Source: Leucoraja erinacea
Taxonomy: Eukaryota
DNA: 64,000 bases
Reading direction: 5' to 3'
Assembly (NCBI RefSeq): GCF_028641065.1
Contig: NC_073403.1
Coordinates: 10,478,001-10,542,000, forward strand
Below, piece after piece: positions 4,626 through 33,372 of this stretch (the first letter of the stretch is position 1; every line of letters begins with the position of its first letter). Under the pieces are notes generated by a model that was given only the letters and a program-made list of their open reading frames with translations, did not search any database and was not told the DNA's origin. A program made the position numbers and the translations under genes.

Positions 4626-4781
4626 ACCTCACCACCTCCTTTGTTGCACAGATAATGTCCACCATCTCCCCACAAGTTCTAACCCAGGAAGTTGCTTGGC
4701 CAGACAATACCACTGCTTTCAATAACACCGACTTACCAACACATGGTTTAAAGCATTAACATGGGGACTGCAGTATCTTAC

Positions 4782-4958
4782 CTTGTTTACAAGAACAACC
4801 ACTTTGCCTTGACCTTTCTTTTGGTCCAGATGGTGCCTGGCAACAAACACAGCTGCCCGTGTCTTGCCTGCACCTGTCGGGAGCCAAATGATGATATTTT
4901 TCCCCTCGAGGGCAGGTTGCACCACCTCCCACTGATAGTCACGCAAATCAATTTGCAT
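4782..4958 (-). CDS. DHX58: DHX58/LGP2 first coding exon (Q motif, Walker A)
   Basis: [39 protein letters not shown]...VVLVNK; no CARD seen upstream; acceptor at 4966-4967, GTAAG donor at 4781; adjacent to KAT2A as in human. Confidence 0.95.
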
Positions 4959-5832
4959 TTTGTATCTGCAAAACCAAAAACAATTAACCCTGCTATCATC
5001 TTGTATCCAAAATAACCTATTGATTTAGCTTAATCAATTTATCAACAGTTTGCCAAGAAAAATATCTGATGTTTTTTCCTATCACTTTCATTTGCTGCTG
5101 AAGAGGTGAGGTTTGGATCATTAGCTTAGAATCTAGAAGCAGCGAGGATGTGAAAGTTGATGGGAACATCAGCAAGAACTCAAACTTAATGGGATTGAAG
5201 TGTGAGGAGAATATGAAAGAGCTAGTACCTTAAAGCTTGGCTGTGAGTTCATGATAGAGATACTGAGGAGATGGGAAATCAATTATGGAGAGTCAGTGCA
5301 ATGATAGAAATTATGGATCATAAACAATGGCACAAGCTGCATCTGCGAAGGTTATGTAAAGACTCAAAGTCTAATTCTGAATCTTCATTGGCATTGTTCA
5401 TATTCATTCAGAGAGGGGAAAGACATCTACTTTTTAAGCTCTGTTTGTATAACTAACATGGCTTTATTCTTAAAACATTGTATCAGATTTTCATTAGCTA
5501 AAATAAATGAAAATGAAAACAGAGCAGTTAATGTAACAGCTGACAGACATTGGCAGCTCTACATCTAAATGGCAAATCTGTGCAATTTGACCTTCTTCAT
5601 ATTTCCCTACGGTATTCAGCAAAATGAAACATAACAATTTTGAAACAAATGATTCAGTCAAAGAATCTTCCCTATTCTCTTAGTTTACCATGACACAGAT
5701 CTATCATAGAAAAGGGTCAAATTTAACTATCAAGATAAAAACCTTGCTCAGTGCAATGGTTGTAAAACAAACATTGAGAAGTTCCAGGCTGATAAATTAT
5801 TCCAATACTAAATGTAAACCACATCTGCCACA

Positions 5833-8508: not shown

Positions 8509-8815
8509 GCATCAAGGGCCCTGAAAAGGGGTATAATGACTGCCAACAGAAACTAAATGTTCAACATTTGTCAACAAGTAACAAAAGATTTGTTCCGTAG
8601 CAGTGACTTTAAATGCTGACTAAAACATTTGCTAATTTCAGCATGAAGTGCTATGTTACAATAGACAATAGGTGTAGGAGTAGGCCATTCGGCCCTTTGA
8701 GCCAGCACTGTGATCATGGCTGATCATCCACAATCAGTACCCTGTTCCTGCCTTTTCCCCATATCCCTTGACTCTGCTATCTTTAAGAACGCTATCTACA
8801 GGGCCCTCCATAATG

Positions 8816-10145
8816 CAGGGCTGCCAACAAGGGAGAGAGTGAGAGGGGAAGAGAGTGAGAGGGGAGAGAGAGAGGGTGAGAGGAGAGAGAGCGGATGAGA
8901 GGGGGAAGAGAGAGAAAGTCTCTGTCGAATTCGCCCAGGTGACCGGCATGGATCAGGCTGTGGCTCGGTGCATCCTGGAGGACAACCAGTGGCTGCTGGA
9001 AGTAAGTACCGAGCACTGGGTAGAAACGTTGGAAGGTAGTGGACTTCAAATGGGGGTGGTTGGTGAAAGCATCCTGCTTGCCTGCTAGATTTTCACTTAC
9101 TGTAACTGCAGGAAAATTGTTTCCGATGTTGGGGGCATTCAGAGTTTAAGAATAAAGGGGGGGGGGGGCAGTTAAGACTGAGATGAGGACAAACTTTCTT
9201 CACATAGAGAGTTGTGAATCTGTGGAATTCTCTGCCACAGAAGGCAGTGCAGGCCAATTCACTGGATGTTTTCAAGAGAGTTACATTTAGTTCTTGGGGC
9301 TAACGACATCAAGGGATATGGGGAAAAAACAGGAAAGAGGTACTGATTTTAGATGAATAGCCATGATCATATTGAATGGCAGTGCTGGCTCGAAGGGCCG
9401 AATGGCCTATTCCTGCACCTATTTTCTATGTATCTATGCTTGAGTATATGACAATAAAGCTCGATCACTTGATTTTGAAGCATTCATGCATGGTGGAGGT
9501 ATAATGTAGTCATAGAGTGATACAGTGTGAAAACAGGCCCTTCGATGCAACTTGCCCACACCCGCCAACATGTCCCAGCTACGCCACCTGCTTTTGGTCC
9601 ATATCTCCAAACCTGTCCTATCCATGTATCAGTCTAACTTTTTCTTAAATGTTGGGATGGTCCCTGCCTCAACTACCTCCTCTGGCAGCTTGTTCCATAC
9701 ACCCATCACCCTTTGTGTGGATAAAGTTACCCCTTAAAAAGTTACCTCTTAAAAATACTTCATACAAAAAACATTAAAATCATACTTCTACAGTGCACTA
9801 AAATATGATTTTAATACATCAAATTTCAAAAGGTTCCTACCCTTCTTCCACACCCTCTCCCCACTCGGTTGCTCCACTCCCTCACCGGGTACCCCCCAAG
9901 GCCAGTGATCACACAGCCTCCCCCCTTTCAAAAACGCTCCAATCCAATTTAAAGCATATATATTGCATTCAAGTGTAAGTTATAAGACTCGCTACAGTAT
10001 GCACCATATTGCACAATTTCAAGCTGAAAAATGCAAATGTTCCGTACCAAATGGAGGGGGCACCCCCCCGGGTCGCGATGCTCCCTCAGGCTTGGTCTCT
10101 CGCAAATTTTTCACTCCCAACTCTCACCCAATGTTGGCAGCCCTG
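8816..10145. mobile_element. non-autonomous TIR DNA element (possibly hAT-related) with 6-bp TSD, carrying a gene fragment
   Basis: perfect 14-bp TIR CAGGGCTGCCAACA/TGTTGGCAGCCCTG; TSD ATAATG at 8810-8815 and 10146-10151. Confidence 0.88.
8895..9007 (+). pseudogene. captured TDP2-like exon 1 fragment (UBA-like domain) with splice donor
   Basis: VEFAQVTGMDQAVARCILEDNQWLLE|GTAAGT resembles the recalled TDP2 N-terminus VEFASVASCDAAVAQCFLAENDWEME. Confidence 0.7.
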
Positions 10146-11758
10146 ATAATGTTTGGGACAAGGTCCCATCATTTATTTATTTGCCTCCGTGCTCCACAAT
10201 TTGAGATTTGTAATAGAAAAAAAAACACGTGGTTAAAGTGCACAGTGTCAGATTTTATTAAAGGGCATTTTTATACATTTTGGTTTCACCATTTAGAAAT
10301 TACATCAGTGTTTATACTTAGTCCCCCCATTTCAGGGCACCATGATGTTTGGGACACATGGCATCACAGGTCTTTGTAATTGCTCAGGTGTGCTTAATTG
10401 CCTCCTTATTGCAGGTATAAGAGAGCTCTCAGCATCTAATCTTTCCTCCAGTCTTTCCATCACCTTTGGAAACTCTTATTGCTGTTTATCAACATGAGGA
10501 CCAAAGTTGTGCCAATGAAAGTCAAATAAGCCATTATGAGACTGAGAAACAAGAATAAAACTGTTAGAGACAAACCGTAGGCTTACCAAAATCAACTATT
10601 TGGAACATCATTTAGAAGAAAGAGAGCACTGGTGAGCTTACTAATCGCAAAGGGACTGGCAGGCCAAGGAAGATCTCCACAGCTGATCACAGAATTCTCT
10701 GTATAATATAGAAAAATCCCCAAACACCTATCCGACAGATCATAAAAACTTTTCAGGAGTTAGGTGTTGATTTGTCAATGACCACTGTCCGCAGAAGACT
10801 TCATAAACTTACAGAGGCTGCACTGCAAGATGCAAACCACTGGTTAGCCGCAAAAATAGGATGGCCCAGTTACAGTTTGCCAAGAAGTACTTAAAAAAGG
10901 AACCACGGTTCTGGAAAAAGGTCTTGTGGACAGACGAGACAAAGATTAACTTATATCAGAGTGATAGCAAGAGCAAAGTATGGAGGAGAGAAGGAACTGC
11001 CCAATATCCAAAGCATACCACCTCATCTGTGAGGTAGTGGGGGTGTTATGGCCTGGGCATGTATGGCTGCTGAAGGTACTGGCTCACTTTTCATTGATGA
11101 TACAACTGCTGATGGTAGTAGCAACATGAATTCTGAAGTATATAGACACATCCTATATGCTCAAGTTCAAACAAATGCCTCAAAGCTCATTGGTTCATTC
11201 CACAGCAAGACAATGATTCCTAACATACTGCTAAAGCAACAAAGGAGTTTTTCAAAGTTAAATAATAGTCAATTATTGAGTGGCCAAGTCAATCATCCGA
11301 TCCGAACACAATTGAGCATGCCTTTTATATGCTGAAGATAAAACTGAAGGGGACTAGCCCCCAAAACAAGCATAAACTAAAGATGGCTGCAATACAGGCC
11401 TGGCAGTGCATCACCAGAAAAGACACCCAGCAACTGGTGATGTCTGAATTGCAGACTTCAAGCAGTCATTGCATGCAAAGGATATGAAACAAAACATTAA
11501 ACATGACTTACTTTCATTTACATGACATTGCTGTGTCCCAAATGTTATGGTGCCCTGAAATGGGGGGGACTATGTATAAACACTGCTGTAATTTCCACAT
11601 GGTGAAACCAAAATGTATAAATATGGCCTTTATTAAAATCTGACAATGTGCACTTTAACCAAGTGATTTTTTTTTCTATTACAAACTCAAATTGTGGGGA
11701 ACAGTGGCAAATAAACAAATGACGGGTCTTTGTCCAAAACATTATGGAGGGCACTGTA

Positions 11759-14272: not shown

Positions 14273-14466
14273 TCACTTGTCCAAAAGCCCCATTTCTTTA
14301 ATCTTGAAGTAGAAAAATTTCTCCAGCATGTTGGCACATTTGCAGTACTCGCTTTCAGGGGGGTTATATTCACGGCAATTTGTGATGATACGTTGAACAT
14401 CAGCAATAAATAACTTCTTGGAAACATAGTAGCGATTCTTCAGCCGGTCACTCATACTCTTTAGGT
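14273..14466 (-). CDS. KAT2A: KAT2A exon 18 (bromodomain C-term, stop)
   Basis: [64 protein letters not shown]; CAG acceptor. Confidence 0.97.
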
Positions 14467-15676
14467 CTGAAGCAACAATGAGAAACAACATAGGATTCTT
14501 TAGCCCACGGAAGGAATTTGGTTTGCAATTTACTCAAAACAGAGGGAGCAAGGAAATCTAAAAATGGCAAATAATTGAATTTACCATCACAATTACAGAC
14601 TAAGTGTGCTGAATGGCCATCTTTCGTGATTCGCCTCCCCACTTTTGCATCTTATGCAAGATGGCAATTTTTTGTAATATTAAATGATACACTTATTAAT
14701 GTTGAATTCACTGATCTACATTACAGGTGGAAATTTACATTTTTAGATCGTCAGTCTGCCTTATTTTGGATGGATGATTTATTAAAGGTTTTCAGGAAGT
14801 TGTGACTAGAGAATTGATTATAGATCCCACAGCAATAACTGCATGAAAATGACATCCAAGCCAAATTCTCTCTTTATAAAAGCATGGAATAAGCTAATCA
14901 AAAGATATGGTATCCATCAGAATAGACTGTGGCTCAAATTCAATTAACAAGAGTGGAATGAAAATGTGTTAAACTTACAGACTAACTTTTTAGAGTCACA
15001 GCATTACTGTGTACCCAAACAGACCCTTCAGCCCAACTGGTCCATGCTAACCAAGTTGCCTATTTGATTCAGTTCAATGCATTTGGCTCATATCCCTCTA
15101 AACCTTTGCAATCCATATACCTGGTCAAATGTTTTTTAAACATTGTAATTGTACCCATATCTATAGCTTCCTCTGACAATCATTCCATATAACCACTACC
15201 CTTTCTGCAAAAAGGTTGCCCATCACTTCTTTTTAAATCTTTCTATTCTATGCTCCCTTGTTTTAGACTTCCCTACCCTGGGCAAAAGACTGACCATTCA
15301 ATATGTCCATGCCCCTCAAGATTTTAAGGTCTTTAAGGTCAGCCTTCAACCTCCTATGCTCCAGGGGAAATAGACCTAGCCTATGTTGTCCCTCCTTATA
15401 ACTCAAATCCTTCATTCCCAGTAACATCTTTGTGAGCTTTTTTGCACCATTTCCAGCTTAATAACTGATGTCTTTCCCTTAGCTCTTATATTAATAGACC
15501 TGTTTTCCCCAGCTAATTAAAGTTGGGTTAAGAAAGAATCAACTGCGGTCCTTGATGAGCATTGGTACATAAACTAACTTTACTATTGTTCAAACATTAA
15601 TCTGGCCAAATCAAATAGTTAATTAAAAATGCTCCTTTATAACAAAGATGAATGAGCTAACATTAATTAAACATAC

Positions 15677-15761
15677 CAATTGGAAATCGAATAATTTCAT
15701 AATAATCTGGAGCCTCAGACTTCTTCACTGGTTCCATGAAAGGCCAGGCACTAGGATGGCT
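15677..15761 (-). CDS. KAT2A: KAT2A exon 17 (bromodomain)
   Basis: SHPSAWPFMEPVKKSEAPDYYEIIRFPI; 85 nt, AG/GT. Confidence 0.97.
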
Positions 15762-17219
15762 CTGTTGAAAAAAGTTGAGGTACACAAGGTAGCCAATAAA
15801 GGAATGAAATAAGGATAATTTAAGTAACACAGTTAGGCTTCCATTCAATACCATAGTGAAGATGCAAACAGCTTGTAACTCCCTACATTGCAAGTTCAAA
15901 TCACAGCAGAACTACTACTGGGGTGTACCCAGAGAAGCTGGTGCTTGCCTATGGGAACAACATCTAATATATCATAGGGTGTGTTATATCTAATGTATTT
16001 GTTCTGGGATTCAGGAAACTGAACACAGGTGGTGTCCAGAGATTACAATATTCTCCTCACCATCTCAACCAGAGTGTATGAGAATATGAAGACGTGGGGG
16101 TACTTTGGGATTGAAAGGGGTTAAAGTATTCTGTCTCTTGGAGATCATGGGATACTTAGTGGCCGATTGAAATAAAGTTTCACATTCTTTGCAGTGACAT
16201 CATCATTCCTGTAAAACATGTGATATTTGATGCTGTTATGATTGGCTGAGGTATTATGCTGTGCATGGCTGTGATTGGGTGGAAAGACCGTCCCCACCTA
16301 CCTAACCAGTGATATTTTGATTGATGATGATTATACTGTGGTGACTGGTTTAATAGGTTACTGTCTATTGTAGGGGACTGCCCATTGTATTAACCATATA
16401 CATCTATATGTTCGTTCCTCTGTTCTGGCACATGCTGTCCTGTTCTCCATGATGAGTGTTAAAGTTTCAGCAGGGAGAAATGGAAGCAATGTCACCATGG
16501 TGGAGTAAAAGGATTTTACAGAATCAAGAATCTGTTTTTACTGAACCAGACGCAGGGGTGCAAAAACCGGAATTAACATGAACACCCAAAGAGTCAGAGA
16601 CATGTTGAAGTTTTGCATTCAAAATCTATCACTTTAAAACTGTTGCACTATAACACGACATTGCTGGTGGTGTACTCCAGTTAATGTATTTGCAGCCCAG
16701 AGGTTAACAGAATCATGCATACAGTCAAAGAATTTTAACTGATTTACTGCATCAGTGATATATTTAACTGCTTGATCTGTCCACTACCAATTCAGCATTG
16801 AAAATATATATCTTATTTATTTTATGAATCCATTAAGTCAGAGATACAAAATAGAAACAAGCCCTTCGGTCTACTGTGACATTCCACCGATCACCCATTT
16901 ACATTAGGCCCTTTTTCATTCTCCCCACATTTTTAATCAACTTGCGCAAGATGCTACCATACACCAATAAATGGAGGGGGAAGGTGGGGGAGGCATGGGG
17001 CAATTTACAGCGCTAATTAACCCACCACCCACATGCATTTGAGCTACAAGAAAACCAGAATAGAAACTGGAAGAAACCTATACAATCACAGCAAGAATGT
17101 GTAAACTCCATTCAGCAGCAGAGGTCAGGATTGAACTTGGGTCTTTGATGCTGACAGGCAGTGACTCTACTAGTTGCGCTACCATGTTGCCCATATTCAC
17201 CCAATTCAAAATCTGATTG

Positions 17220-17280
17220 TACAAGTGGAATTTTATGACACATTAGAAAATGTCTAATGTGTCATAAAATTCCACTTGTA
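17220..17280. repeat. perfect 28-bp inverted repeat with 5-nt loop
   Basis: TACAAGTGGAATTTTATGACACATTAGA-AAATG-TCTAATGTGTCATAAAATTCCACTTGTA. Confidence 0.95.
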
Positions 17281-17402
17281 AATTGAAAATGTCTAATCAA
17301 CGTCAGAAGCCTAGAAGTCAACTGCAGAGCTGTTGTTTTTACACATCAAGAAAATTATACAACCATGTGCCAGGTACATCTCTAGCATACTGTTCTCACA
17401 AC

Positions 17403-17466
17403 CTTTATTTGTGCCAGAAGGTTTTTCAAGGAATTGTGCAGCTGGTCTGGGTCCTTCAATTCTTTT
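17403..17466 (-). CDS. KAT2A: KAT2A exon 16
   Basis: KELKDPDQLHNSLKNLLAQIK; 64 nt, donor GTTGTG. Confidence 0.93.
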
Positions 17467-18462
17467 CTGGAATACAAATACAGTAGAAATTAAGAAATTA
17501 ATGAGAATGTATATTAGCGTAAACAATTTTCACTGTTATAATATGAAAGATGTATAAGTGACTGACAGGTGGGGTCTTGATTCAAGCAGGAGAAATCATG
17601 TTATTTTGCCATTTATCCATAGGATTCATTTATTTAGTCAACTTTAAAATGCTGATTGACTGAACAAGAAATAAATCTTTCTTTTATGGCCGATTTGAAA
17701 AACCACCACAGTAATATTGCATCGAAATTGAAACCTCTCACTTTCTTGCACCGCTTTCACTTTCAAATGTCAATAAGCTCAATGTAAATATTTAGGAAAC
17801 AGTAAAACAACCCGTTTAAGTAATTCTTACAGGTCCAGCTCTTCATTGTAGGACATAAACATAATGCCACTTTGCAATGCACTATGCCACACTACAATGC
17901 ACTATGATGCACTACAATGCTGATAACTGTTTACTGCACTCTGCATGTTTCCTTTGCTCTATCTACTTGGACTTTGAAACAATTGTATATATACACAAGG
18001 TATATTTGGATAGTGTACAAAAAAGCTTTTCATTGTACCTTGATGACAGGTGACAATAAACAAACCTAAAACTAATTCTTAAATTTAAATGTAATTCATT
18101 AAAAAACGCCTGGGAAATATTCAAAATTAAAATGCAAAAAAAGTTTACATACATTTAAAAATAGATAGATTAATAGAGGACCAGATAAATTAAATTCTTC
18201 ATTAATGAATGCTCCTCTATCAAAAGTGGGAGAATTCATTGCCCACAGCACCGCTCTCCCCTTCTGTGCACCTGCAACAATGAAGTGGCCACGCCAGTTT
18301 ATAACAGGACTTGGATGATAAACTGTAATTAATATTAACCATTGAAGTGCTAGGTAATGATCACTCCCAAGAGAGAGCCCTGCCTTTTCTTTGACCTTCA
18401 GCAACACCAACAAGCCTCCAACCATCAACATATTCTGAACTCAAAAGTGAAGTGTACCAAAT

Positions 18463-19057
18463 TGTAGGGGCTTGAAGAAAACTGATGCGGTCAGGTTATT
18501 AAAAAGAGATCGTTAACTGCTTGGGAACAGTTTCACTATACACGGTGGCAAAGATCAGCGTGTGTAACAACTGATAGGAGGAGCTTGGACATCACTGCAA
18601 ACAATGGCCCCTTCATGGTGTGAGGTGCTTGATATATCCTAATCATTCTAAATAAATAAGGACGCCTGTTTTTGAGTAATGTGTTCTGTGTGAAAGTTGT
18701 TAGTTGAATGTCCCATGTATTTTGTCTCTAGTCATGTTCAGTCTTTAGTGTTTTATTTTTATCTACATAGTTTCTTTGTTTTGTTAGTTATAATGTGTTC
18801 AGTTTTTAGTTAAGGTCTGCAGATATTGTCATGCTTTGTTTTGATGCAATATAACTATTGTGCCATGTTCAGTCTTTAGTCTTTTAGTTTTTACATAGTT
18901 TCTTCGTTTTGTTGGTTATGACGTGTTCAGTTTTTAGTTAAGGTCTGCAGATATTGTCATGCTTTGTTTTGATGCAATATAACTATCGTGCTTGAATAAA
19001 AGTTTTTAAATGCTAGTTCAGGACTCGGCAAATCATTGAGAATTCAGTGATCCTACA
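18463..19057 (+). mobile_element. solo LTR with an internal ~130-bp tandem duplication
   Basis: TGTAGG...CCTACA termini, near-TSD CAAAT/TAAAT, AATAAA near 18995, duplicated unit 18733-18863 / 18864-18991. Confidence 0.75.
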
Positions 19058-19491
19058 TAAATTAAATTTAACATTCTGGTTGTAAAAACAAAATTAAAAA
19101 AATATAAAATATATATTTAAAAAATTGGGCACTACTGTCAAATCCCATGTAGGAGGTGTTTCCTCTATCATCAGAGTGAGGCCATGTACAAACTGGAGGA
19201 ACACCACCTCATATTCCACCTGGGTAGCTTATAACCCAACTGTATGAACAATGAATTATCTGATTTTAGGTCATCTCTAACAACCCTCCCTCCCCTACAC
19301 TCCCCTGTGCCTCACCTGGTCTCACACCCATTTCTCCCCTCACCCTATACTTCCTCCTCTAGCTTCATAAGTTGCAAATGATTTTTTAACATTAAAATTC
19401 AGAAATACTTTGCATTTATTTTAATCCCTAATTTCAACCTACCAATCTCAAGTTATCTTGATATAATCGAGCCTTCAACAAATGTTCTTAC

Positions 19492-19528
19492 CCTTTATCT
19501 TTGCCACTGGGTTTCCATCCAGTTTCCT
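19492..19528 (-). CDS. KAT2A: KAT2A exon 15 (37-nt mini-exon)
   Basis: (Q)ETGWKPSGKDK(G); TAG acceptor, GTAAG donor; phases fit both neighbours. Confidence 0.93.
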
Positions 19529-19619
19529 CTATTGGAAGGAAAGGACAATTATTTCAGTTTGGGTTAATGATTTAAAATGTAACTTTGAAAATACAACATT
19601 CAAAGGAGCTGATGTAGAA

Positions 19620-20290
19620 AAGGCTTCATGGTTCTTGGCATCCACATCAATAGCAACCTAACCTGGTCCTTTCACAATAATGCAGCAAGCAATAAAGCAC
19701 ATCTGCATTTTTTTTTTACTTTCTCAGGCGTCTGGGAAGATTCAAGATTTGGCACGTCCACAAGGATTCTCTTGAATTTATCCAGAAGAGCTATTGAAAA
19801 TAATTTGAGGAATGTATATCTCAGCCTGATATGGCAATTGCTCTTTGTTTGACCACCTCAACCTCCATAGAGATAGAGTGTACACATACACCAGTCCCTC
19901 GCAGACTTGTCACTTCACTGTATCCAGTCCATCTTCATGGTGTATTTGCATCAGGTAGACTGAAAGTATTGACAAGGATGCCCGTCACCCAGGCCATTCC
20001 CTTGTCTTTCCTCTACTTTCTGGCAATATATACGGATGCTTGAAAGCCTGGAGGTCAAAACTTAAGAAATAACCTCTCCATGGCAATCAAGCACCTGAAC
20101 CAATAACCTTTCCCAGAGAAGTTGCTACACACGCTTACTTTCAACTCTACCTCCTTTATTCTGTTATTGCACCATTCTGCTGTGTTCCATTTATCATTGT
20201 ATTTATTGCTGTATTATTGAGTTTACTGTTTACTTGACAGGGTGTTTCATTGCACGCTAGTGTATATGACAATAAACTACACCAATCAGA
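19620..20290 (+). mobile_element. Rex1/Babar-like LINE 3' fragment (decayed)
   Basis: VLGIHINSNLTWS...NKAH...FGTSTRILLN...AIEN resembles the Rex1 C-terminus; TGACAATAAA tail also seen near 18055. Confidence 0.65.
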
Positions 20291-21181
20291 ATCTTAAGTC
20301 CATGATGATCATTTTCCCCTTTTCCCTTGCTACCACATTTCAATTCAATAAAGATATTGAATTGAACTGTGAATTGAGCCCGAGCAACTGTGACGTGAAC
20401 AGGAGTTTACCAAGTTGCACAGGCTGCAAGGATGCAGTCATTTCTTTTGTAATTGACCTTTTTAAATATTAATAATAGTGATAAATAGAGGTAAACAATT
20501 GTGTACAACTGAAGTTGAAGTATTGCAAGTGAGCATGCTTCAATATTTTATTAATTGAATAATTAGCACTAATTTTCCATGACGGAAAAGGTTTCAATAA
20601 ACTGATTTCTGCATGAAATTACACATGGAACAAATCCCTAAATTACTGTCAATATCTTGGCATATTGATGGATAACAATAAATCTGCCATTAATTAAGAT
20701 GCTGGAGAACAATATTCACAATGGAAGTTGGTAGACTTGTAAATCCTACAAGTCACCAATAGGTGGAGCTTACTTCAAAGCCTGCAAAGCACAAGGATAC
20801 TCTGCTGCATGCATAAGTAAGTTGGCAATTCCAGTGGCAAGCCTCATATTTGGAAGAAATTTGTGAGATTTTTTTTTTTAAATGGATATTTGCAAAATGT
20901 TTAATTTGCTGCTATATTTAAGAGGGAGTTAGATGTGGCCCTTGTGGCTTAAGGGATCAGGGGGTATGGAGAGAAGGCTCCAGGATACCGAGTTGGATGA
21001 TCAGCCATGATCATATTGAATGGCGGTGCAGACTCGAAGGGCCGAATGGCCTACTCCTGCACCTATTTGTTTGGGTGCATCCGTTAATTTATGTGATTTA
21101 AATGAAGTTGTTGGGCTCAAAAAGGTAGAAATTCATTTCACACTAAAGCATAAAAAAAGGCATTATTAGATGTTACCATTA

Positions 21182-21367
21182 CAGGGTCTCCCCAGTTTAC
21201 GAACACCCAACTTATGGACAACCCATACATATGAACAAGCATTTGGGAGACTAGCGGGATGAATTTGCTGCAGGGCTGCAGCCATATTCTGTCACGTAGG
21301 AACTCAGTACACAGCAATATCGTTGTATATTACAAAGAATTCCGTATGTATGAGTTAGAGACCCTGG
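21182..21367. mobile_element. Tc1/pogo-type MITE remnant
   Basis: TA|CAGGGTCTC...GAGACCCTG inverted termini with TTACGAAC-like subterminal motifs. Confidence 0.45.
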
Positions 21368-21729
21368 TTTAACTACACGCTACCATTGGTTGACTTATAT
21401 TTTTATTTAAATATATTGCTGGACACATTTGGGACATGCAAGCTGTTCGGTTATCAAATATTTCTCAGGAACAGAACCCTTTATTACCTGGAGAAGACCG
21501 GTACAAAAAATGCCTCAAATTTAAATCCAGAATGTAGAAACAAAGAACTGCAGATGCTGGTTACAGGGTCTTGGCCTGAACTGTCACATTATCTGGTTCT
21601 CCAGATTTGCTGCTTGGCCTGCTGAGTTACTCCTGCACGTTGTATTTTTCAAATTTAAATCCATTGCAGTCAATAAATACATAAGGCGGGGAAAGGGTAA
21701 CTAGAGAGAGTGGGACCAAATGGGTCAAT

Positions 21730-22915
21730 GAGGGCAGAACTGTAGATGTTGTGTACATGGATTTCAGTGTAGCATTCGACAAGGTTCCGCATGGTAGGCT
21801 GCTCTGGAAGGTTAGATCGCATGGGATCCAAGGAGAGATAGCTGAATGGATAGTAAATTGGTTCCATGGAAGGAAGCAGAGGGTGATGGTGGAAGGTTGC
21901 TTCTCAGACTGGAGGCCTGTGACTAGTGGTGTGCCTCAGGGTTCAGTGCTGGGCCAGTTACTGTTTTCATCTACATCAATGATTTGGATGAGAACATACA
22001 GGGCAAGATTAGCAAGTTTGCTGATGAGACAAAAATGAGTGGTTTTGCAGATAGTGAAGATGGTTGTGAAAGATTGCAGCAGGATCTGGAATCGATTGGC
22101 CAGGTGGACAAAGGAATGGTTGATGGATTTTAATACAGAGAAGTGTGAGGTGTTGTATTTTGGGACGTCAAACAAGGGCTGGACCTACACAGTAAATGGT
22201 AAGCTTCTGGGGGGGTGGTGTAGAGCAGAGGGATCTAGGACTAGCGGGGCATGTGTCCCTGAAGGCCGAGTCGCAGGTAGGTAAGGTGGTCAAAAAGGCT
22301 TTTGGCACTTTGGCTTTCATCAGTCAGAGTACCGAGTATAGACGTTGGGAGGTCATGTTGCAGTTGTACAAGACATTGGTGAGACCGCATTCAGAATATT
22401 GTGTTCAGTTCTGGGCACCATGTTATAGGAAAGATATTGTAAAGCTTGAAAGGGTTCAGAAAAGATTTATGAGGATGTTGCCAGGACAAGAGGGTGTGAG
22501 CTATAGGGAGAGGTTGAGTAGGCTGGGTCTCTATTCCACGGAGTGCAGGAGGATTAGGGATGATCTTACAGAGGTGTACAAAATCATGAGAGGAATAGAT
22601 CGGGTAGATGCACAGTCTCTTGCCCAGAGTAGGGGAAGCGAGGACCAGTGGACATAGGTTCAAAGTGAAGGGGAAAAGATTTAATAGGAATCCAAGGGAT
22701 AACCTTTTCACACAAAGAGTGGTGGGTATATGGAACAAGCTGCCAGAGAAAGAAGTTGAAGCTGGGATTAAACCATTATTTAAGAAACAGTTAGATAGGA
22801 ACATGGATAGGACAGGTTTGGACGGATATGGACCAAGCGCAGGCAAGTGGTATAGCTGGGACATTGTTGGCCGGTGTCAGCAAATTGGGCCGAAGGGCCT
22901 GTTTCCACACTGTGC
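21730..22915 (+). mobile_element. CR1 LINE RT/3' fragment
   Basis: YMDFSVAFDKVPHGRLL...VTSGVPQGSVLG...SKFAD...LYKTLVRPHSEYCVQFW, frameshifted. Confidence 0.93.
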
Positions 22916-24002
22916 CCTAATAATTTTAAATACCAAAGGATGAATATACACAGGCAACTGGCCCAACGATGGCCTGCTGGTGCCACCTCTCAAGGCTAAT
23001 TTCTAAAGCAGAATATAACCTTCAAGGGAATGAAAGCACGAAAGCTTTGCCAAAACTAATTTCCTAATTTTCATTGAAATAAACATGTTCCCATGACCCA
23101 TATTCAGGTCCAAAACATGGTTTAAATGGACTGATATCTTATTTTCATATCAACATTTAAAAAGTGGTGTTCATATCTATCTGATAACAATTAAAAAGAA
23201 ACACGGTCCACAAATCCAAGTTCATTGTGAAGTCAAAAGCAATTTTCCCAAGCTGTGTAAACAATGTTTACCGGAAGGCTGATTAGGCAAATACCATTCT
23301 CAGTCTTGATGACAAGTCAGTGACTTTGATCTGGATCGGGTCACTGCGAGAGTGAAATGAGATCAGCAAGATTTAGGATTGTCCTGTATAGTCCGAGATG
23401 TGTGTCACCAATGATCAACAAGAAACGCAGCTGTTCTGAATGAGGCAGACAGCTGAAAAAGACAGACTATAAAAATTACTGGTTCACAATAAGATTAAGT
23501 TTTAGAAGAATGAGAGGTTATCACACTGAAACATAATATTTGTTGGAGCTTGAAAGACTGATGCAAAGAGGATGCATTCACTGACTGTGACCAGGGGCTG
23601 CAGTTAAAATTATGGGCATGTCATTTTGCACATGCACAAGGAAAATGTCATCATTCAGTGCGTGGAGAATATTTTTGGAACACTCTCCCCTTAAGGGCTG
23701 TGGATGCTTAAAATTGATATCAAGGCATATCTGGAGAAAAATGGTGCTGAAATAGCTAGACTTTTATGACCAGTAGACCATGCTCCAAGCATCAGATGGC
23801 CTATTCTGGCTGCCATTTATGGTCTTGATTTTGAAACATTACTCAATGATAATCTGCATATAAATAGGCCATACATTCGTGCATGGTATTTACCGTGTAC
23901 TTCTGGAGTAAATATATACCATAACCATTACATTCTCATATTCAATGTACCTTCAGTACTTCAATGCATTCTTTATTCACTCTTCCGAAATGGAATACTT
24001 AC

Positions 24003-24117
24003 GAATTCCAGGTATACTCTCTATGGGTATCTGCCGAACTCCTTCCTTGAAGCAGGTGAGGCCTGGGTAAACCTTCCGGATCTGTGCTTGTTTTCTCTCG
24101 ATCAGCTTCTTTATTAT
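24003..24117 (-). CDS. KAT2A: KAT2A exon 14
   Basis: [38 protein letters not shown]; 115 nt. Confidence 0.97.
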
Positions 24118-24347
24118 CTGAACTCAAAATAGAAATTTATTACTTCACTTGCAGTGGACGGTAGATATTTAGTACTGGTTCTTTTGGGACAACCGATTCA
24201 CATTGTGCTAAAAAAATAAAATAAACTTTTCCATGTTCTGTGCTGTCCAGCAAGTGAAGCATTATGTCGCTAAGCCAGTTTCACTAGACTGGAACCCAAT
24301 TCGTTTTTGAGTGGTGAAAGCGTTATTTAAAGTTATTGCCGTAATCA

Positions 24348-24677
<330 letters not shown>

Positions 24678-24680
24678 CTA

Positions 24681-24842
<162 letters not shown>

Positions 24843-24918
24843 TTATTTATTTATTTAATGTTCTATGCATTTATTGATGCTTATTATGGGTGTATGACAT
24901 TAAATGAAAACTGTACTG

Positions 24919-24952
<34 letters not shown>

Positions 24953-25992
24953 CAGGCACTCCGCGACTTGCATAATAGGTGAGTAACGTAAACTCATACT
25001 TAAACAATCCACAGTAGGTCCCTTTTCTTGAATGACGTGTTATTGCAAAGGGAGGAGGGCTTCCCATCAGCTTCATAGCTATAAAAGCGCTGCCCGTGCT
25101 CGCTGCTCTTCCAGTTTTGGCCACTTGCAACTCCTGGCTGAGTCACCGACATCTTACTCATTGTGCACCACTGAGCACCTTCTTCATCAGCTGCTGCTCC
25201 GCCCAGTTGACGTAGCTGTTGTGCGGCTCACATTGTAAACCCTGGCCAAAAGCGATTTCTTCATGCTGCTGCCTCCAACAAGATGCGCATAGTTATCGTG
25301 GGGCTCCCTCCCCCCTCAACAGCCACGGTGACCAAGTTCATCCTGTCAGTGGCAGCGGCCTGAAGAGACCACTGTGAAATACCGTGTATTTCCTTTAGAT
25401 CTAACAACAAAGCATCCTCCACTCTCCCAACCATAAAATCCCATTCACTTTTGTGATCAATGGACCAATACACACCTACTGCTGCAATCAGAGGTAATCG
25501 CTCTCACTCCCCCACTATGCCCAGCAACATTCCTAGATTGCAGCCTTGTGACGCACCAGAAAAAAAAAATACCCGTGGGTAGGAACACAACAAAATACTT
25601 TTTAAAGAATCTTGTGGTTAAATCTGTAGGCATTCAAGAAACACATCCTTTACAGTTTTCCAACCTCACCTCATTCTATTTTAGTAGGCAACATGTAACA
25701 AAAATATCATTTTTAGTTATAAAACAAACTATGAAAGGCCAATAAATATGTTTAAAGGATGAAACCCTTCAAACAACCTTCATATCATTTTTTGCTGACT
25801 ATAAATGGAGAAAAATGCTTCATGAAGAATTAATTGCAACACCCAGATTTAAGGATAACATGAGCTTGACCAAAAGAAAACGGAAGCAATTAGCATTTGG
25901 ACAAATTCTGCCTCTAACTTTGAAGGTTCATCTCTGTACATGCCGATAACTGCTGAGTTTTGTATATCATTACAAATCACAGATATGCACTA

Positions 25993-26190
<198 letters not shown>

Positions 26191-26563
26191 TTACTAAAAC
26201 ATTACAACATGTATTCAGAAAACTCGCGATTTCAAAACAATTATTTGCCAAGCTTACACCAGTAACAGTGAAATATTCACCAATTTGTGTGTTTTTGAGA
26301 AATTTAATCTCAAATTATATGTTTTAAACCGTAATTATACTCATACTGTCCAGTATGTGTCACATTCTTTTTGCTGTCAGCTAATGTTTGGTACTGGTTA
26401 AAATGGCAGCAAGTCCAGAACTTCCATGTAAAACATAGGAAACCCCAAAGTTAACAAATTTTGTTGTGATATAACATATGTAATATGTTCTTCCACTGAA
26501 CTCCCTGCAACAGAACTGCATCACAAACATATAAATTGAAAAAAATTTGGCTGCACACTACTA

Positions 26564-27052
<489 letters not shown>

Positions 27053-28194
27053 TTAAAAGAACTGCAGTGTTAATACAGCCTAATTTAAGCAATTAGCATT
27101 GGTTTATTATTGTCATGTGAACAGAGATACAGTGAACAACTGTGTACTGAGATACAGTGAAGAACTGCAGATGCTGGCTTATATTGAAGATAGACACAAA
27201 ATGCTGGAGAAACTCAGCGGGACAGGCAGCAACTCTGGATAAAGAAGGGTCTCGACTCGAAACGTCACCCATTCCTTCTCTCCAGAGATGCTGCCTGTCC
27301 CGCTGAGTTACTCTAGCATTTTGTGTCTATCTACAGTGAACAACTGTTTTGCATGGTATGCACGCAAATCATATCATATGAAAACAACAGCGATAGGAAA
27401 CAGAGCGCAAAATAAGGTTATAGCTACAGAGAAGGGGCAGATAAAAACAAGTGCAAAATCGCCAACGAGGTCAATTGGGAGATCATCCTTTACATACGAG
27501 CAGGTCCAGCCCGCCCGCCGCAGAACCGGGAAGCGTGCCTGTAGTAGGGCCGAGGCTCATCTCCTGCTTGTCCCTGAAGACCGGGAACTGGAGGGTGGAG
27601 AGAGTCGGCGACAGCAGAGGATGCTGGACAAAGGTCCAGTAAGGAGAACTGGGGGTGTCCCTTCCTTGCCCTCAAAGCCGGCTGTGGGCATGAAGGCTGA
27701 GCAAGGAGAGAACCAATGGTTCACTGGCGATCCGAATGGAAGCGGCGGCGACTGCAACGGACGTTCATAGCAAGCTGCAGCTGGGACTTTGAAAATGGTG
27801 ACTATTACACATGAACGCAGTGGAATACAATACTTATTGGGATTGTACTTATGTAGGGCAATAATCTTACTGATCGGAATGCAATAAATGAATTCCACTG
27901 CACCTTGGTACATGTGATAATAAAAGAACCATTAACCACCTAGGAACTTTAAGCTCTCGTCCATCTCCACTTCTGCACCATTAAAGCAGACTGGGGTGTG
28001 TACTTGTAAATAAATATTTGGGAAACAGGTTATGTTGCATCAATTTATCTTTTGCTAAGCAACAAACAACTCACATCCTGAATCAGAATTTCCTACAATT
28101 TTTCTTCCCCCACCCCAAGTAAAACATGGAAGACATACAAAAAAGTAAAGTATCTTGAATGTCAATAATTGCAAAGATTCATCCAGGACATCTG

Positions 28195-28843
28195 TAGAAA
28201 CATAGAAACATAGAAATTAGGTACAGGAGTAGGCCATTCGGCCCTTCGAGCCTGCACCGCCATTCAATATGATCATGGCTAATCATCCAACTCAGTATCT
28301 TGTACCTGCCTTCTCTCCATACCCTCGGATCCCCTTAGCCACAACGGCCACATCTAACTCCCTCTTAAATATAGCCAATGAACTGGCCTCGACTACCCTC
28401 TGCGGCAGAGAGTTCCAGAGATTCACCACTCTTTGTGTGAAAAAGGTTCTTCTCATCTCGGTTTTTAAAGGATTTCCCCCTTATCCTTAAGCTGTGAACC
28501 CTTGTCCTGGACTTCCCCAACATCGGGAGCAATCTTCCTGCATCTAGCCTGTCCAACCCCTTAAGAATTTTGTAAGTTTCTATAAGATCCCCTCTCAATC
28601 TCCTAAATTCTAGAGAGTATAAACCAAGTCTATCCAGTCTTTCTTCATAAGACAGTCCTGACATCCCAGGAATCAGTCTGGTGAACCTTCTCTGCACTCC
28701 CTCTATGGCAATAATGTCCTTCGTCAGATTTGGAGACCAAAACTGTACGCAATACTCCAGGTGTGGTCTCACCAAGACCCTGTACAACTGCAGTAGAACC
28801 TCCCTGCTCAAATACTCAAATCCTTTCGCTATCAAAGCTAACA
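28195..28843 (-). mobile_element. young CR1 LINE 3' fragment
   Basis: ORF 28365-28844 [19 protein letters not shown]...; (TTTCTATG)n tail on the minus strand. Confidence 0.93.
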
Positions 28844-28965
28844 TAATTAACTCGGTGATGGTGCTAGCGATAGTGGCCTGGTGCTCGTCAGTGGGGTCCT
28901 GCCATAGTCCACATCAAATGACTAGTAGCATGCATTTTAATCATTTAAATTAAAAATTAACCCAC

Positions 28966-29102
28966 CTCTGGACCTAACATAGCTGCTGGATCTGTGATTG
29001 TCAGCATTACTTCATTAACCAGCTCCATAGGAATGTCACCCATCACTCGCATTCTTTTTGCATCTTCTAGGGTCATGGTGTCAGGCAGCTTCCTTTTCTC
29101 TC
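28966..29102 (-). CDS. KAT2A: KAT2A exon 9
   Basis: GEKRKLPDTMTLEDAKRMRVMGDIPMELVNEVMLTITDPAAMLGPE; 137 nt. Confidence 0.96.
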
Positions 29103-29659
29103 CTGTAAAGTACAATACACCAACTAAAAGTATTCAACATTAATACATTTTGTCCCAGTTGGTCAGCTGAGCCACGGTTCACAATTATTTCACTGCCACA
29201 CGAGATATGTGATTTTTAGTCTTGAAAGGATATTATGTACAAACTGGATTGGGATCAGTTCAATGCTTCCAGCAACGAAACACATGAGGTTGCAGGGCAG
29301 TGGGCTCTGGCACAGCCCTTGCCACCATCAAATGCATTAAAAGGTAGTGCAGCCTTAGAAGGTGGCATCCATCAACAAGAATTACTACCATCTGATCCAT
29401 GCCCTCTTCTCACTGCTTTCATCTTGCAGGAGGTACAGAAGTCTGAATTGGCACACGGCTCTTTAAAGGAATATTGCTTTCTTATAATTATCAGGTTCTT
29501 GAACTAACCCACACAACCCTAATCCTACCTTGTCTAACTTCAATCAACACAACCTGGGGTCTCAGGATGAAGGTGAGGGAGGCGGTATAGGGACCCCAGG
29601 TTGTGTGGATTGAAGTTAGACAAGATAGGATTAGGGTTGTGTGAGTTAGTTGCCCTCTT

Positions 29660-30000
29660 TACCACCATCCAGGGATCCCAGCAATCGATCCAGCTGAGAC
29701 AGAGGTTCACGTCCACCTCCTCTAATCTCATCTACTGCATCCGGTGTTCCTGAAGTGGCCTCCTATACATCGGCAAGACCAACTGTGGACTCTGCCATCG
29801 TTTCGCCGAACACTTGCACTCGATCTGCCAAGGCCTACTGGATGCTAACCATTTTAACTCTTCTTCCTATATTGAGCTTTCTGTCCTGGGCCTCCTCCAT
29901 TGCCAGATCGAGGCCGCAGGCAAACTGAAGGGACACCTCATATCATATTCCACTAACAACACAAAGGTATGAACATTGAGTTCTCCAAATTTTCTCCACC
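29660..30000 (+). mobile_element. Penelope-like GIY-YIG fragment
   Basis: QRFTSTSSNLIYCIRC...LYIGKT; matches 50740-51070. Confidence 0.75.
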
Positions 30001-31232
30001 CACACCCACCCCCCACTTCTTCCCCCACCCACCTCCCCCCTTGCACCCGACCTGGAATCACGCCTATTTCTCCCCTCCTACATTCCTTCCTCTAGCTTCA
30101 CAATTCTCAGCCCGTCAATCCTTTTGACTCGCACCTCCTGTCTTTTCATCTCTGTCCTTTGTTCCACCATTTGCCTATCAAAATTTCCCCATCACCAATT
30201 TCAAACTATTACCTGCCAGGCCATGCACTGCCCCTCCCAGCTTTTTGCACTAAAAAACACAAATTACCCCATTAAAATGTCATTCATTATTCTCTATGTT
30301 TTAGGAGCAGAATATGGTGAGCTATCCTAAACATGTTAAAATATTTAGTAAATATGTTAACATATTTAGGAAAATAAAACAAATATTTCTTGAAGAATAA
30401 GAGTTTGAGTTATCCTGGCTCTATGTCATATTATTGAATTGCACTTGCAAAGACCATGGAATAAGTCAATTCAATATCCTTTTCAGGAGAGGAAAATCAT
30501 TCGCAGATGGGACTGGTAAAAGGAGGGAATAGTCAGAAGTCTTGGTCCCCATTATTAGCCGTGTTGGAAATTTTAGGTAGTACAAGGGAAAGGGCAGATA
30601 TCGTGCCGTGCACACTGCCAAAAGTTAGAGCAATTTCTATGTAGCCAGCAGGCACTACAGATACTGGAATCCTGTGCAAAAATACAAAATGTTGGAGTAG
30701 CTCAATGTGTCAGACATCATCTCTGGACAACATAGAGAGTCTGAAGGGTCCCAATCAAAAACTTTGCCTATCCATGTTCCCCAGAGATACTGCTAGACCT
30801 TATTCCAGCACTTTGATTTATTTGGAACAAGTTTTGTGGCTGCCCTGGAAGGCAATCATAGTAACTCTAATGTAATACAAAGAGAACCCAAAAGTTCATT
30901 TGTAGACAGAAGGAACTGCAGATGTTGGTCTACAAAAAAGACACAAAGTGCTGGAGTATCTCACTGAGTCCGGCAGCATCTCTTTCACCTTCCACCCATA
31001 TTCCTTCTTCTGGCTTCACATTCTGTGCCTCTTCCATCCTTATCTCACTTTGTCTTTCGTCTCGGTGGCATGGTGGCGTTGTGGCAAACAGACTTATAGC
31101 GCCAGAGACCCGGGTTCAATCCTGACTACGGGTACTTGTCTGTGCGGAGCTTGTACGTTCTCCACGGGACCTGCATTTCCTCCCACAGCCCAAAGACGTA
31201 CAGGTTGAAAGGTTAATTGGCTTGGTATAAAA

Positions 31233-31385
31233 NNNNNNNNNNNNNNNNNNNNNNNNNNNNNNNNNNNNNNNNNNNNNNNNNNNNNNNNNNNNNNNNNNNN
31301 NNNNNNNNNNNNNNNNNNNNNNNNNNNNNNNNNNNNNNNNNNNNNNNNNNNNNNNNNNNNNNNNNNNNNNNNNNNNNNNNNNNNN
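31233..31385. other. assembly gap (153 N) inside an HE1-like SINE (~31070-31445)
   Basis: run of N; both flanks are collinear with the SINE at 47065-47378. Confidence 0.98.
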
Positions 31386-32257: not shown

Positions 32258-32368
32258 CTGATGCTGGCTCAGAAAGTCCCATGTCAACACTGATGGAAGC
32301 TGGACTTGAGGTACTATTGATGCTTCTGCTTGATGGAGGGTTACTAGGCACTGGAGATGGAGTAACGG
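32258..32368 (-). CDS. KAT2A: KAT2A exon 8 (low-complexity linker)
   Basis: AVTPSPVPSNPPSSRSINSTSSPASISVDMGLSEPAS; 111 nt, CAG/GTAAT, phase 1-1 fits. Confidence 0.88.
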
Positions 32369-33265: not shown

Positions 33266-33372
33266 CTGTCTGTTGTCCCAGTTGCACTCCTTCTGAAGCA
33301 GATAAAGTGAAATCAGAATCCCATATTGGCGAATTCAGCCCATAAATCTCTTCCTCCAGCATAGACAGAAAC
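33266..33372 (-). CDS. KAT2A: KAT2A exon 7
   Basis: FLSMLEEEIYGLNSPIWDSDFTLSASEGVQLGQQT; 107 nt. Confidence 0.95.

What the first reader, a model, noticed from the sequence alone, without database searches (positions are those of the whole stretch)
8816..10145. TIR transposon carrying a TDP2-like exon with its splice donor (Pack-type gene capture)
Seen: a 1.33-kb element with perfect 14-bp TIRs and a 6-bp TSD contains VEFAQVTGMDQAVARCILEDNQWLLE followed directly by GTAAGT and intron-like sequence. Restoring 2 nt at ~8924 gives ERESLCVEF. Known (from recall): the TDP2 N-terminal UBA-like domain reads LLCVEFASVASCDAAVAQCFLAENDWEME, with the first intron about here. Inference: DNA-level capture of exon 1 plus intron start of a DNA-repair gene, then mobilised as a unit, since the element landed inside a Tc1 TIR. 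It would be a portable UBA-like exon with a donor site.
Basis: partly seen in the sequence, partly recalled or inferred. Interest (0 to 1): 0.75.

Follow-up and report, generated by a model that had tools for sequence, protein, structure and literature searches.

The report
Skate transposon family spreading TDP2 exon
A short jumping DNA element in a skate-like fish carries part of the first exon and intron of the DNA-repair gene TDP2, and sequencing depth in related genomes suggests it likely spread this piece to hundreds of sites, against the handful of copies reported for such gene-carrying elements in animals.

Summary
8816-10145 has perfect 14-bp TIRs and a 6-bp TSD and sits inside the left TIR of a dead Tc1, between KAT2A and DHX58 of a skate-like genome. 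It holds about 29 codons from the end of TDP2 exon 1 and the true donor: skate TDP2 proteins splice exactly there, and three genomic ORFs read on into the same intron letters. New here: it is not a one-off capture. In contigs of two whole-genome-sized runs from related organisms, summed depth over the TDP2 piece is 3,000-25,000 times single-contig depth and similar to that over the spacer and right arm. That means at least about 100-400 copies, probably 500-2,000. Known animal multicopy Pack-TIRs have a handful. Corrections: the exon encodes only two of the UBA helices, and this copy has no ATG and a frameshift. An acceptor-like site 110 nt downstream, at the junction with a LINE 3' end, may use up the donor, and it makes RNA-level capture a real rival. 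Superfamily (hAT6-like) rests on TSD length alone. The parental DNA locus, other copies' flanks and left ends, and expression were not seen.

The parts
8810..8815 (.). Left target-site duplication (6 bp), positions 12-17 of the Tc1 left TIR
8816..8829 (+). Left TIR, 14 bp perfect (23 of 26 out to 8840)
8830..8915 (+). GA-rich low-complexity tract (89% purine over 8816-8915); not TDP2-like; whether other copies share it was not tested
   Evidence: depth at 8885-8935 is 5-7% of the next bin in all 4 runs, but the 2-nt deletion and the tool's filter can also cause that
8909..9001 (+). 3' part of TDP2 coding exon 1 (about 29-31 codons; UBA helices 1-2), with a 2-nt deletion near 8924; left junction inside GA-rich microhomology
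9002..9111 (+). TDP2 intron-1 sequence, GTAAGT donor at 9002; ends in an acceptor-like pyrimidine tract and CAG at 9111 (possibly the whole 110-nt intron)
   Evidence: read-through ORFs P0001, P0004, P0003 match the first 28 codons; acceptor score 7.2, top 2.2% of AG sites, true acceptors 4.4-12.4
9107..9438 (+). 3' end of a CR1-type LINE in sense orientation with its tail; homology starts at TGCAG overlapping the acceptor-like site; small internal deletion near 9137
   Evidence: 'CR1-type' is a recalled label
9439..9507 (.). 69-bp spacer, present at family-level depth; origin unknown
   Evidence: (sites 9451, 9459)
9508..9735 (-). Second LINE 3' fragment, antisense, with family-shared deletions; 15-bp tandem duplication 9723-9755 at its junction with the arm
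9736..10131 (.). Transposon arm (about 400 bp), high copy, no other copy in the window
10132..10145 (-). Right TIR
10146..10151 (.). Right target-site duplication
8799..11756 (+). Host element: decayed Tc1 (TA at 8797-8798 and 11757-11758; TIRs about 213 bp, 185 of 209 aligned columns identical; broken transposase frames)
   Evidence: (HTH_Tnp_Tc3_2, E 2e-4, below cut-off)
14276..50092 (-). Context: KAT2A, 18 coding exons, ends about 4.1 kb from the element
4722..5024 (-). Context: frame holding a 5' coding exon of DHX58 (LGP2)

Best explanation
The 1.33-kb stretch is a non-coding cut-and-paste transposon with 14-bp ends and a 6-bp target duplication that carries the end of TDP2 exon 1 and its intron, and it is likely one decayed member of a family that a transposase working in trans (likely hAT6-type) copied to hundreds or a few thousand sites in skate-like genomes. 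Shown: ends, TSD, insertion into the Tc1 TIR, TDP2 identity, true donor, high and similar summed depth of exon, intron, spacer and arm in other genomes, and other copies sharing two of the internal junctions. Inferred: (1) the TDP2 piece entered one founder element once, most likely by microhomology-guided template switching from the TDP2 locus or its pre-mRNA (GA-rich overlap on the left, TGCAG overlap with a LINE on the right); (2) the two LINE relics were already in the founder, since their junctions are shared; (3) the loaded founder then amplified; (4) this copy landed in the Tc1 TIR and has decayed neutrally. The cargo is most likely a passenger: an incomplete UBA, no start codon in this copy, and a donor that would tend to splice to the acceptor-like site 110 nt on, giving 24 LINE-derived codons and a stop.
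For: Summed contig depth over bins 8936-9139: X1 386k-623k, X4 169k-269k, X12 7.2k-10.0k, X15 206-565. Single long contigs: 18-23 for 4 of 8 listed X1 pieces and 20-24 for 5 of 8 listed X4 pieces. A base can be counted at most 31 times per copy in a k=31 graph (my reasoning). So the median of 11 element-specific sites gives at least 412 copies in X1 and 288 in X4, or 206 and 144 if 22 is a heterozygous depth; the lowest single site gives 310 and 98. A simulation of unsimplified unitigs gives 138k-251k for 500 copies at 1-3% divergence and 373k-589k for 2,000 copies at 3-6%, so about 500-2,000 in X1. All 14 element-specific sites move together across runs: X15/X1 is 0.0002-0.0018 against 0.012-0.088 for 12 LINE and Tc1 sites. 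Other copies bridge junctions with 31 or more letters each side: LINE-a tail/spacer (X1 pieces 4, 5), spacer/LINE-b (X1 5, 6; X15 20), LINE-b/arm (X4 28; X12 14) (table 8). At the 4 listed sites that change a residue, the majority letter gives the residue of P0001, so the deep contigs are TDP2-like. L001 holds an unrelated 456-bp element with the same terminal 11-13 bp and its own 6-bp TSD; hAT6 is defined by 6-bp TSDs (PMC12730594, passages). No other TDP2 exon is in the 64-kb window.
Against: No contig spans the element. None of the 32 listed pieces bridges the TDP2-intron/LINE junction (9107-9111) or a TIR with a new flank, so linkage of the TDP2 piece to the arm in other copies is inferred from depth, and distinct TSDs were not seen. 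The tool states that depth is no copy number; my conversion is a bound plus a simple star-tree simulation without indels or bubble removal. X4/X1 is 0.32-0.41 at the 5 TDP2 sites but 0.51-0.81 at the 9 spacer and arm sites, so some copies may lack the TDP2 part. X12/X1 overlaps slightly with LINE sites, and X12 gives a bound of only 16-32 copies. The runs are coded organisms and the best holds 0.61 of the words: the count is for relatives, not shown for the window's own genome (none held). 4 of the 22 listed runs were laid, and the stretch laid began at 8885, so the left TIR was not examined. No transposase is present, so the superfamily is unproven.
Confidence: 0.75

Rival explanations
1. RNA-level origin of the cargo (compatible with later amplification by the DNA transposon). 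A LINE reverse transcriptase started at the LINE tail (9438), switched at the TGCAG overlap to unspliced TDP2 pre-mRNA, and the chimera was inserted into the founder element.
For: TDP2 piece and LINE 3' end are both sense, tail intact; LINE homology starts exactly at TGCAG 9107-9111, which also looks like an intron end. 15 of 17 human mRNA/LINE-1 5' chimeras are sense, mostly with first exons (bioRxiv 10.1101/2025.02.02.635956, passages).
Against: The intron is retained, whereas those human chimeras carry spliced exons. 5'-truncated LINEs often join their target at short microhomologies (my knowledge), so a LINE lying in a longer parental intron explains the same junction. Part of the acceptor score comes from the LINE's own CAG.
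Confidence: 0.35
2. The TDP2-LINE piece is a SINE-like retroposon (TDP2 head, LINE tail) amplified on its own; one copy fell into an ordinary high-copy MITE, and the equal depths are coincidence.
For: Head-plus-LINE-tail layout; no contig links the TDP2 piece to the arm; TDP2 sites and arm sites differ about two-fold in X4/X1.
Against: The junction behind the LINE tail is shared: the 69-bp spacer stands at 295k-354k in X1, as deep as the TDP2 sites (211k-554k), and is bridged by other contigs. Independent retro-insertions would each have a new 3' flank. All element sites share the same drop in X15 and X12.
Confidence: 0.12
3. Single or few-copy Pack-TIR made by gap filling after insertion, as for most animal Pack-TIRs.
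For: This is the common case: only 4 of 281 unique animal Pack-TIRs were multicopy (PMC8277862).
Against: Ten copies could give at most about 6,800 summed depth in X1 (22 x 31 x 10); 211k-554k is seen at the 5 TDP2 sites. No parental TDP2 lies within the window.
Confidence: 0.07
4. The TDP2 piece serves the element or the host (promoter, exon trap or dominant-negative UBA) and was selected for.
For: Bat Helitrons with promoters or first exon/intron reached higher copy numbers (4,690-5,505) than those with other gene parts (PMC4224331, section 13). Genomic ORFs P0001, P0003, P0004 and P0146 hold a full exon 1 from its ATG, and some look decayed (P0004: 3 of 26 exon changes against 0 of 28 in the intron read-through relative to P0001; UBA_4 falls below cut-off in P0003 and P0004), so a longer form of the family may exist.
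Against: Those ORFs may be the real TDP2 gene or pseudogenes of other rays; their DNA could not be fetched. This copy has a frameshift, no ATG and an incomplete UBA.
Confidence: 0.15

Closest known systems
Multicopy animal Pack-TIRs, e.g. Pack-hAT-N8_XT carrying CAPSL 5' UTR in Xenopus tropicalis and Ssk-FB4 in Drosophila (Tan et al. 2021, PMC8277862; main text parts 1-4 of 10 read, supplements searched by term)
   Same: Non-autonomous TIR element with TSD, 200-300 bp of GC-rich 5' host gene sequence inside, parent not nearby, microhomology at breakpoints, hAT-like ends.
   Different: Those families have about 3-4 loci each; here depth points to hundreds or more, shared by several organisms. 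The only cartilaginous fish in that survey, elephant shark, had 0 Pack-TIRs. Their pipeline needs a cargo-free consensus, so a family whose consensus already holds the cargo could be missed (my inference).
HelibatN3 Helitrons of vesper bats carrying NUBPL promoter, 6 codons and a splice donor (PMC4778049, passages; PMC4224331, abstract and section 13)
   Same: 5' part of a housekeeping gene with its first donor amplified to high copy number in a vertebrate lineage.
   Different: Helitron (rolling circle, no TIR or TSD) against a TIR element with a 6-bp TSD. Promoter and exon-trap activity are shown for HelibatN3; here this copy has no promoter or ATG and a possible internal acceptor.
hAT6 group of hAT transposons (Kapitonov and Jurka 2007, known to me only through passages of PMC12730594)
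   Same: 6-bp TSD; short TIRs.
   Different: No transposase here; no autonomous partner found; TIR not compared with hAT6 entries (Repbase and Dfam not available).
Plant Pack-MULEs (as described in the introduction of PMC8277862)
   Same: Gene fragments with introns carried between TIRs, a third multicopy.
   Different: Different superfamily and kingdom; here one cargo appears to be amplified massively.

Membership tests
Pack-TIR (Tan et al. 2021) | TIR-transposon ends on both sides with a TSD | tested here: met
Pack-TIR (Tan et al. 2021) | Internal sequence derived from a host, non-TE locus | tested here: met
   TDP2 exon 1 by protein match and exon boundary
Pack-TIR (Tan et al. 2021) | Parental DNA copy identified in the same genome | not testable with these tools
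   no genome held; two single-depth contigs with long unmatched 5' parts (X4 piece 25, X12 piece 9) may be the gene, but their letters are not given
Pack-TIR (Tan et al. 2021) | Cargo-free consensus element of the same family | not testable with these tools
   only a distant relative with the same termini, L001, was found
Multicopy Pack-TIR | Several loaded copies | tested here: met
   depth bound and shared junctions; indirect for the TDP2-to-arm link
Multicopy Pack-TIR | Distinct TSDs at the several copies | tested here: inconclusive
   no listed contig or loose end shows a flank beyond 10145 other than Tc1; tables were cut
hAT6 | 6-bp TSD | tested here: met
   window and L001
hAT6 | hAT transposase in the Blackjack-related lineage | not testable with these tools
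   element is non-coding; no Pfam transposase inside it; no autonomous partner among the 3 loci
IS3EU (also 6-bp TSD) | TIRs over 30 bp ending TAYGG..CCRTA | tested here: not met
   definition; termini here are CAGGG, 14-26 bp
TDP2 UBA domain | Match to TDP2/UBA_4 profile above cut-off | tested here: met
TDP2 UBA domain | Complete helical bundle with the helix-3 aromatic residue | tested here: not met
   profile positions 6-30 of 43 only; full skate TDP2 covers 2-39; role of F62
HelibatN3-type promoter/exon trap (works-like test) | Promoter and ATG upstream of the donor | tested here: not met
   GA tract replaces the first ~55 codons in this copy; other copies untested
HelibatN3-type promoter/exon trap (works-like test) | Donor splices to host acceptors | not testable with these tools
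   no raw RNA reads available

The most novel reading that the evidence does not exclude
The family's long form carries the whole TDP2 first exon with its ATG and CpG-rich promoter, and a hAT6-type transposon has scattered hundreds to thousands of promoter-exon-donor cassettes through skate genomes: a cut-and-paste counterpart of bat HelibatN3. Some copies start chimeric transcripts or rewire neighbours; this one lies about 310 bp from a likely interferon-responsive DHX58 promoter, head to head.
Probability: 0.2. Interest if true: 0.8.

Novelty: new variant of a known kind. Interest (0 to 1): 0.6.

Why it matters
The one broad survey of animals found gene capture by TIR transposons to be almost always single-copy and independent of transposition, with no case in a cartilaginous fish. 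A family that amplified one captured coding exon and donor to hundreds or more copies in a vertebrate is two to three orders of magnitude beyond the reported multicopy cases. It suggests that high-copy Pack elements hide inside repeat libraries as ordinary consensus sequences. With many dated copies and a known parent it would allow direct tests of capture mechanism (DNA or RNA template), of neutral decay, and of whether 5' gene pieces favour amplification as in bat Helitrons. In practice, TDP2 exon-1 probes, primers and read mapping in skates would be confounded.

Tried and rejected
Window self-BLAST found only the LINE parts, no second copy. An exact 30-nt exon pattern found 0 matches in metagenome and viral contigs. 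The TIR pattern gave 3 metagenome loci; 2 (L002, L003) are chance matches in bacterial-type coding DNA and were dropped. Protein searches gave few relatives: 3 of 10 candidates, 3 of 15, 2 representatives of which P0147 is an unrelated repeat protein. No TDP2-exon fusion to another protein appeared, which is weak evidence given length limits and the shortness of repeat contigs. ESM Atlas gave only generic UBA clusters at 0.85 or less. No RNA holder listed; X15 is only guessed to be RNA and is contigs, so nothing on expression follows. No Rfam family in 8400-11900. Earlier-findings look-ups by sequence, place and the first word set were blank. Other UBA-like sources (p47, TAP-C) rejected: far weaker scores, and skate TDP2 differs at only 3 of 26 residues. 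Assembly artefact rejected: TSD, TIRs and independent bridging contigs. Horizontal transfer considered, because P0001 equals the family majority over 54 codons, but not supported: P0001 is also only 1 of 26 residues from both named skate TDP2 proteins, and their intron sequences are unknown. A bacterial promoter scan was irrelevant. Paper searches: 'skate TDP2 transposon' 0 papers; 'elasmobranch, DNA transposon, gene fragment, captur' 0; listings showed no skate Pack element; the little skate genome paper has 0 mentions of TDP2 or hAT in its main text (PMC10115646, term search; its supplements not searched). Repbase and Dfam could not be searched and may already list the family without noting its cargo.

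Full report
Setting. The window is from a cartilaginous fish, most likely a skate or close ray. It encodes KAT2A on the minus strand (50092-14276; a 65-residue exon frame is 100% identical to shark, ray and chimaera KAT2A; exons mapped) and a 5' coding exon of DHX58 near 4722-5024. The closest named proteins to the captured peptide are TDP2 of Leucoraja erinacea and Amblyraja radiata. No genome is held for the window. The element lies between the two genes, about 4.1 kb past the KAT2A stop.

Anatomy. The ends are perfect 14-bp inverted repeats, 23 of 26 with one gap, flanked by ATAATG on both sides. The site is positions 12-17 of the left TIR of a Tc1 (8799-11756), and the Tc1's right TIR shows the empty state. 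Inside, in order: an 85-bp GA-rich tract; about 29-31 codons of TDP2 exon 1 with a 2-nt deletion near 8924; GTAAGT and 110 nt of intron; a sense LINE 3' end (9107-9438); a 69-bp spacer; an antisense LINE 3' fragment (9508-9735); and a 400-bp arm. An independent element in L001 has the same terminal 11-13 bp and its own 6-bp TSD, so 6 bp is a property of these ends. hAT6 is defined by 6-bp TSDs; IS3EU, the other 6-bp group named in that paper, has different termini (PMC12730594, passages). Without a transposase the label stays 'hAT6-like'.

The cargo is TDP2. The 26-residue peptide's best PDB hit is the TDP2 UBA (E 5.5e-4), it passes the Pfam UBA_4 cut-off, and it differs from each named skate TDP2 at 3 of 26 residues. 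Those proteins continue with exon 2 exactly where the window reads GTAAGT, while genomic ORFs P0001, P0004 and P0003 read on into the same intron letters (3, 3 and 9 differences in 28 codons). So the donor is the real exon-1 donor and the letters after it are TDP2 intron 1. No other TDP2 exon is in the window. The piece is not a whole domain: it covers profile positions 6-30 of 43 and lacks helix 3 with the aromatic residue critical for ubiquitin binding (PMC5137425, passages).

It is a high-copy family. I laid contigs of 4 of the 22 listed runs (coded organisms A, B, E, F) on 8885-10400 at 85% likeness. Summed depth over the TDP2 exon and intron bins is 386k-623k in X1 and 169k-269k in X4, where the commonest depth of long single contigs is about 22. 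The spacer bin (553k, 344k) and arm bins 9752-10057 (170k-418k, 144k-275k) are at the same level; the bins 8885-8935, 9140-9190 and 10058-10108, where this copy has indels or a homopolymer, are lower. The tool warns that summed depth is no copy number, because short overlapping contigs count a base many times. That factor cannot exceed 31 for k=31. From 11 element-specific sites (chosen from the 40 listed; sites mixed with LINE or next to indels were left out) the bound is 412 copies in X1 and 288 in X4, halved if 22 is heterozygous depth; the lowest site gives 310 and 98; X12 gives 16-32. A simulation puts X1 at about 500-2,000 copies. The majority letters at the listed exon and intron sites give the residues of P0001, so the deep signal is TDP2-derived. 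All 14 element-specific sites fall together in X15 relative to X1 (0.0002-0.0018), apart from 12 LINE and Tc1 sites (0.012-0.088). Contigs of other copies bridge the LINE-a/spacer, spacer/LINE-b and LINE-b/arm junctions (table 8). The counts of change types against the window are nearly identical in all four runs, so the differences are private to this copy and the family is shared.

What is not shown. No listed contig bridges the intron/LINE junction, spans the element, or shows another flank, and the tables are cut. The TDP2 sites are about half as deep relative to the arm in X4 as in X1, so cargo-less or deleted copies may exist. The left TIR and most of the GA tract were outside the stretch laid. 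The best run holds 0.61 of the words, so this exact copy, and perhaps this species, is not among the runs. Two single-depth contigs (X4 piece 25, X12 piece 9) match 8919-9061 and 8926-9061 at 87-89% and go on for about 230-240 unmatched letters, apparently upstream; they may be the TDP2 gene or long copies.

How the cargo got in. The left junction falls in GA-rich letters shared by tract and exon. The right junction is sharper: LINE homology starts at TGCAG 9107-9111, and the same letters close a pyrimidine tract that scores as an acceptor (7.2; top 2.2% of AG sites; the 17 KAT2A acceptors score 4.4-12.4). I recall, without a call, that human TDP2 intron 1 is short. If 9111 is the true intron end, the founder took the whole intron and was joined to the LINE at the splice site, by DNA template switching of the kind proposed for Pack-TIRs (PMC8277862) or by a reverse-transcriptase switch onto pre-mRNA (compare bioRxiv 10.1101/2025.02.02.635956, passages). 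If not, the LINEs are ordinary intron relics captured with the exon. I put DNA-templated at about 0.6 and RNA-templated at about 0.35. Either way the shared junctions say the assembly happened once, before amplification; then a transposase in trans moved the unit, as the TSD and the break of the Tc1 TIR show for this copy. The Tc1 TIRs are 88.5% alike while the element's TIRs and TSD are perfect, which fits the nesting order.

Function. Most likely none for this copy: no ATG of exon 1, a frameshift, an incomplete UBA, and a donor with a candidate acceptor 110 nt away that would add 24 LINE-derived codons and a stop. The open possibility is a long form. P0001, P0003, P0004 and P0146 hold exon 1 from its ATG, differ from the two named skate proteins by a shared indel, and in part look decayed. 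They could be long copies or the genes of other rays. The locus is also suggestive: a single ISRE-like motif at 8497-8508 (27 of 100 shuffles have one, so weak alone; motif recalled) and a minus-strand GTGAGT donor near 8385 suggest the DHX58 promoter lies about 310 bp from the element, head to head.

Comparison and verdict. It works like a multicopy Pack-TIR and meets the tested features of that class; parental locus and distinct TSDs are untested. Tan et al. found 370 Pack-TIRs in 100 animals, 4 multicopy families of about three copies, and none in elephant shark. High-copy carriage of a first exon and donor is known in vertebrates from bat Helitrons, not, in my searches, from TIR elements or from skates; Repbase and Dfam were not searchable. 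Verdict: real, a new variant of a known kind, notable for scale rather than mechanism. Interest 0.6.

Noticed in passing
window 8385-8508 (minus strand): ISRE-like GAAACTGAAACT (only match in the window; 27 of 100 shuffles have one) and a GTGAGT donor about 110 bp further on: likely promoter and first non-coding exon of DHX58, about 290 bp from the nested Tc1 and 310 bp from the element.
   Followed up: partly
L001 1252-1707: 456-bp MITE with the same termini and a 6-bp TSD (TGTCAG) in an AT-rich, animal-like record of the metagenome collection; one end resembles the element's right end over 34 bp (82%).
   Followed up: partly
window 8661-8798 and 11759-12700: The Tc1 is flanked on the left by a minus-strand LINE 3' end and on the right by minus-strand LINE sequence that includes an endonuclease frame (12315-12695, Pfam Exo_endo_phos); the two do not join directly, so LINE sequence between them may have been deleted next to the Tc1.
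   Followed up: no
window 10392-10414: Acceptor-like site (score 7.7, top 1.8% of AG sites) inside the Tc1, upstream of its transposase start near 10492 and on the same strand as the TDP2 donor.
   Followed up: no
P0001, P0003, P0004, P0146: Four unnamed genomic ORFs with full TDP2 exon 1 share an indel that the Leucoraja and Amblyraja proteins lack; two change the Glu of the EF motif, which is Glu in human and worm TDP2, to Lys. Long family copies, pseudogenes or genes of other rays.
   Followed up: partly
window 50231-51073 (+): 280-codon frame with a GIY-YIG domain (E 6e-4, below cut-off), Penelope-like by recall, starting about 140 bp upstream of the KAT2A start codon and pointing away from it.
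   Followed up: partly
window 56461-57390 (+): 309-codon open frame without Pfam match; looks like a gag-type protein of an LTR retrotransposon by recall.
   Followed up: no
window near 31231-31390: Run of N (153 N in the window in all), an assembly gap inside a KAT2A intron.
   Followed up: no
bins 10211-10312: Run X4 is 1.7-2.9 times deeper than X1 at Tc1 sites 10245 and 10293 but not elsewhere, hinting at a Tc1 subfamily expanded in organism B.
   Followed up: no
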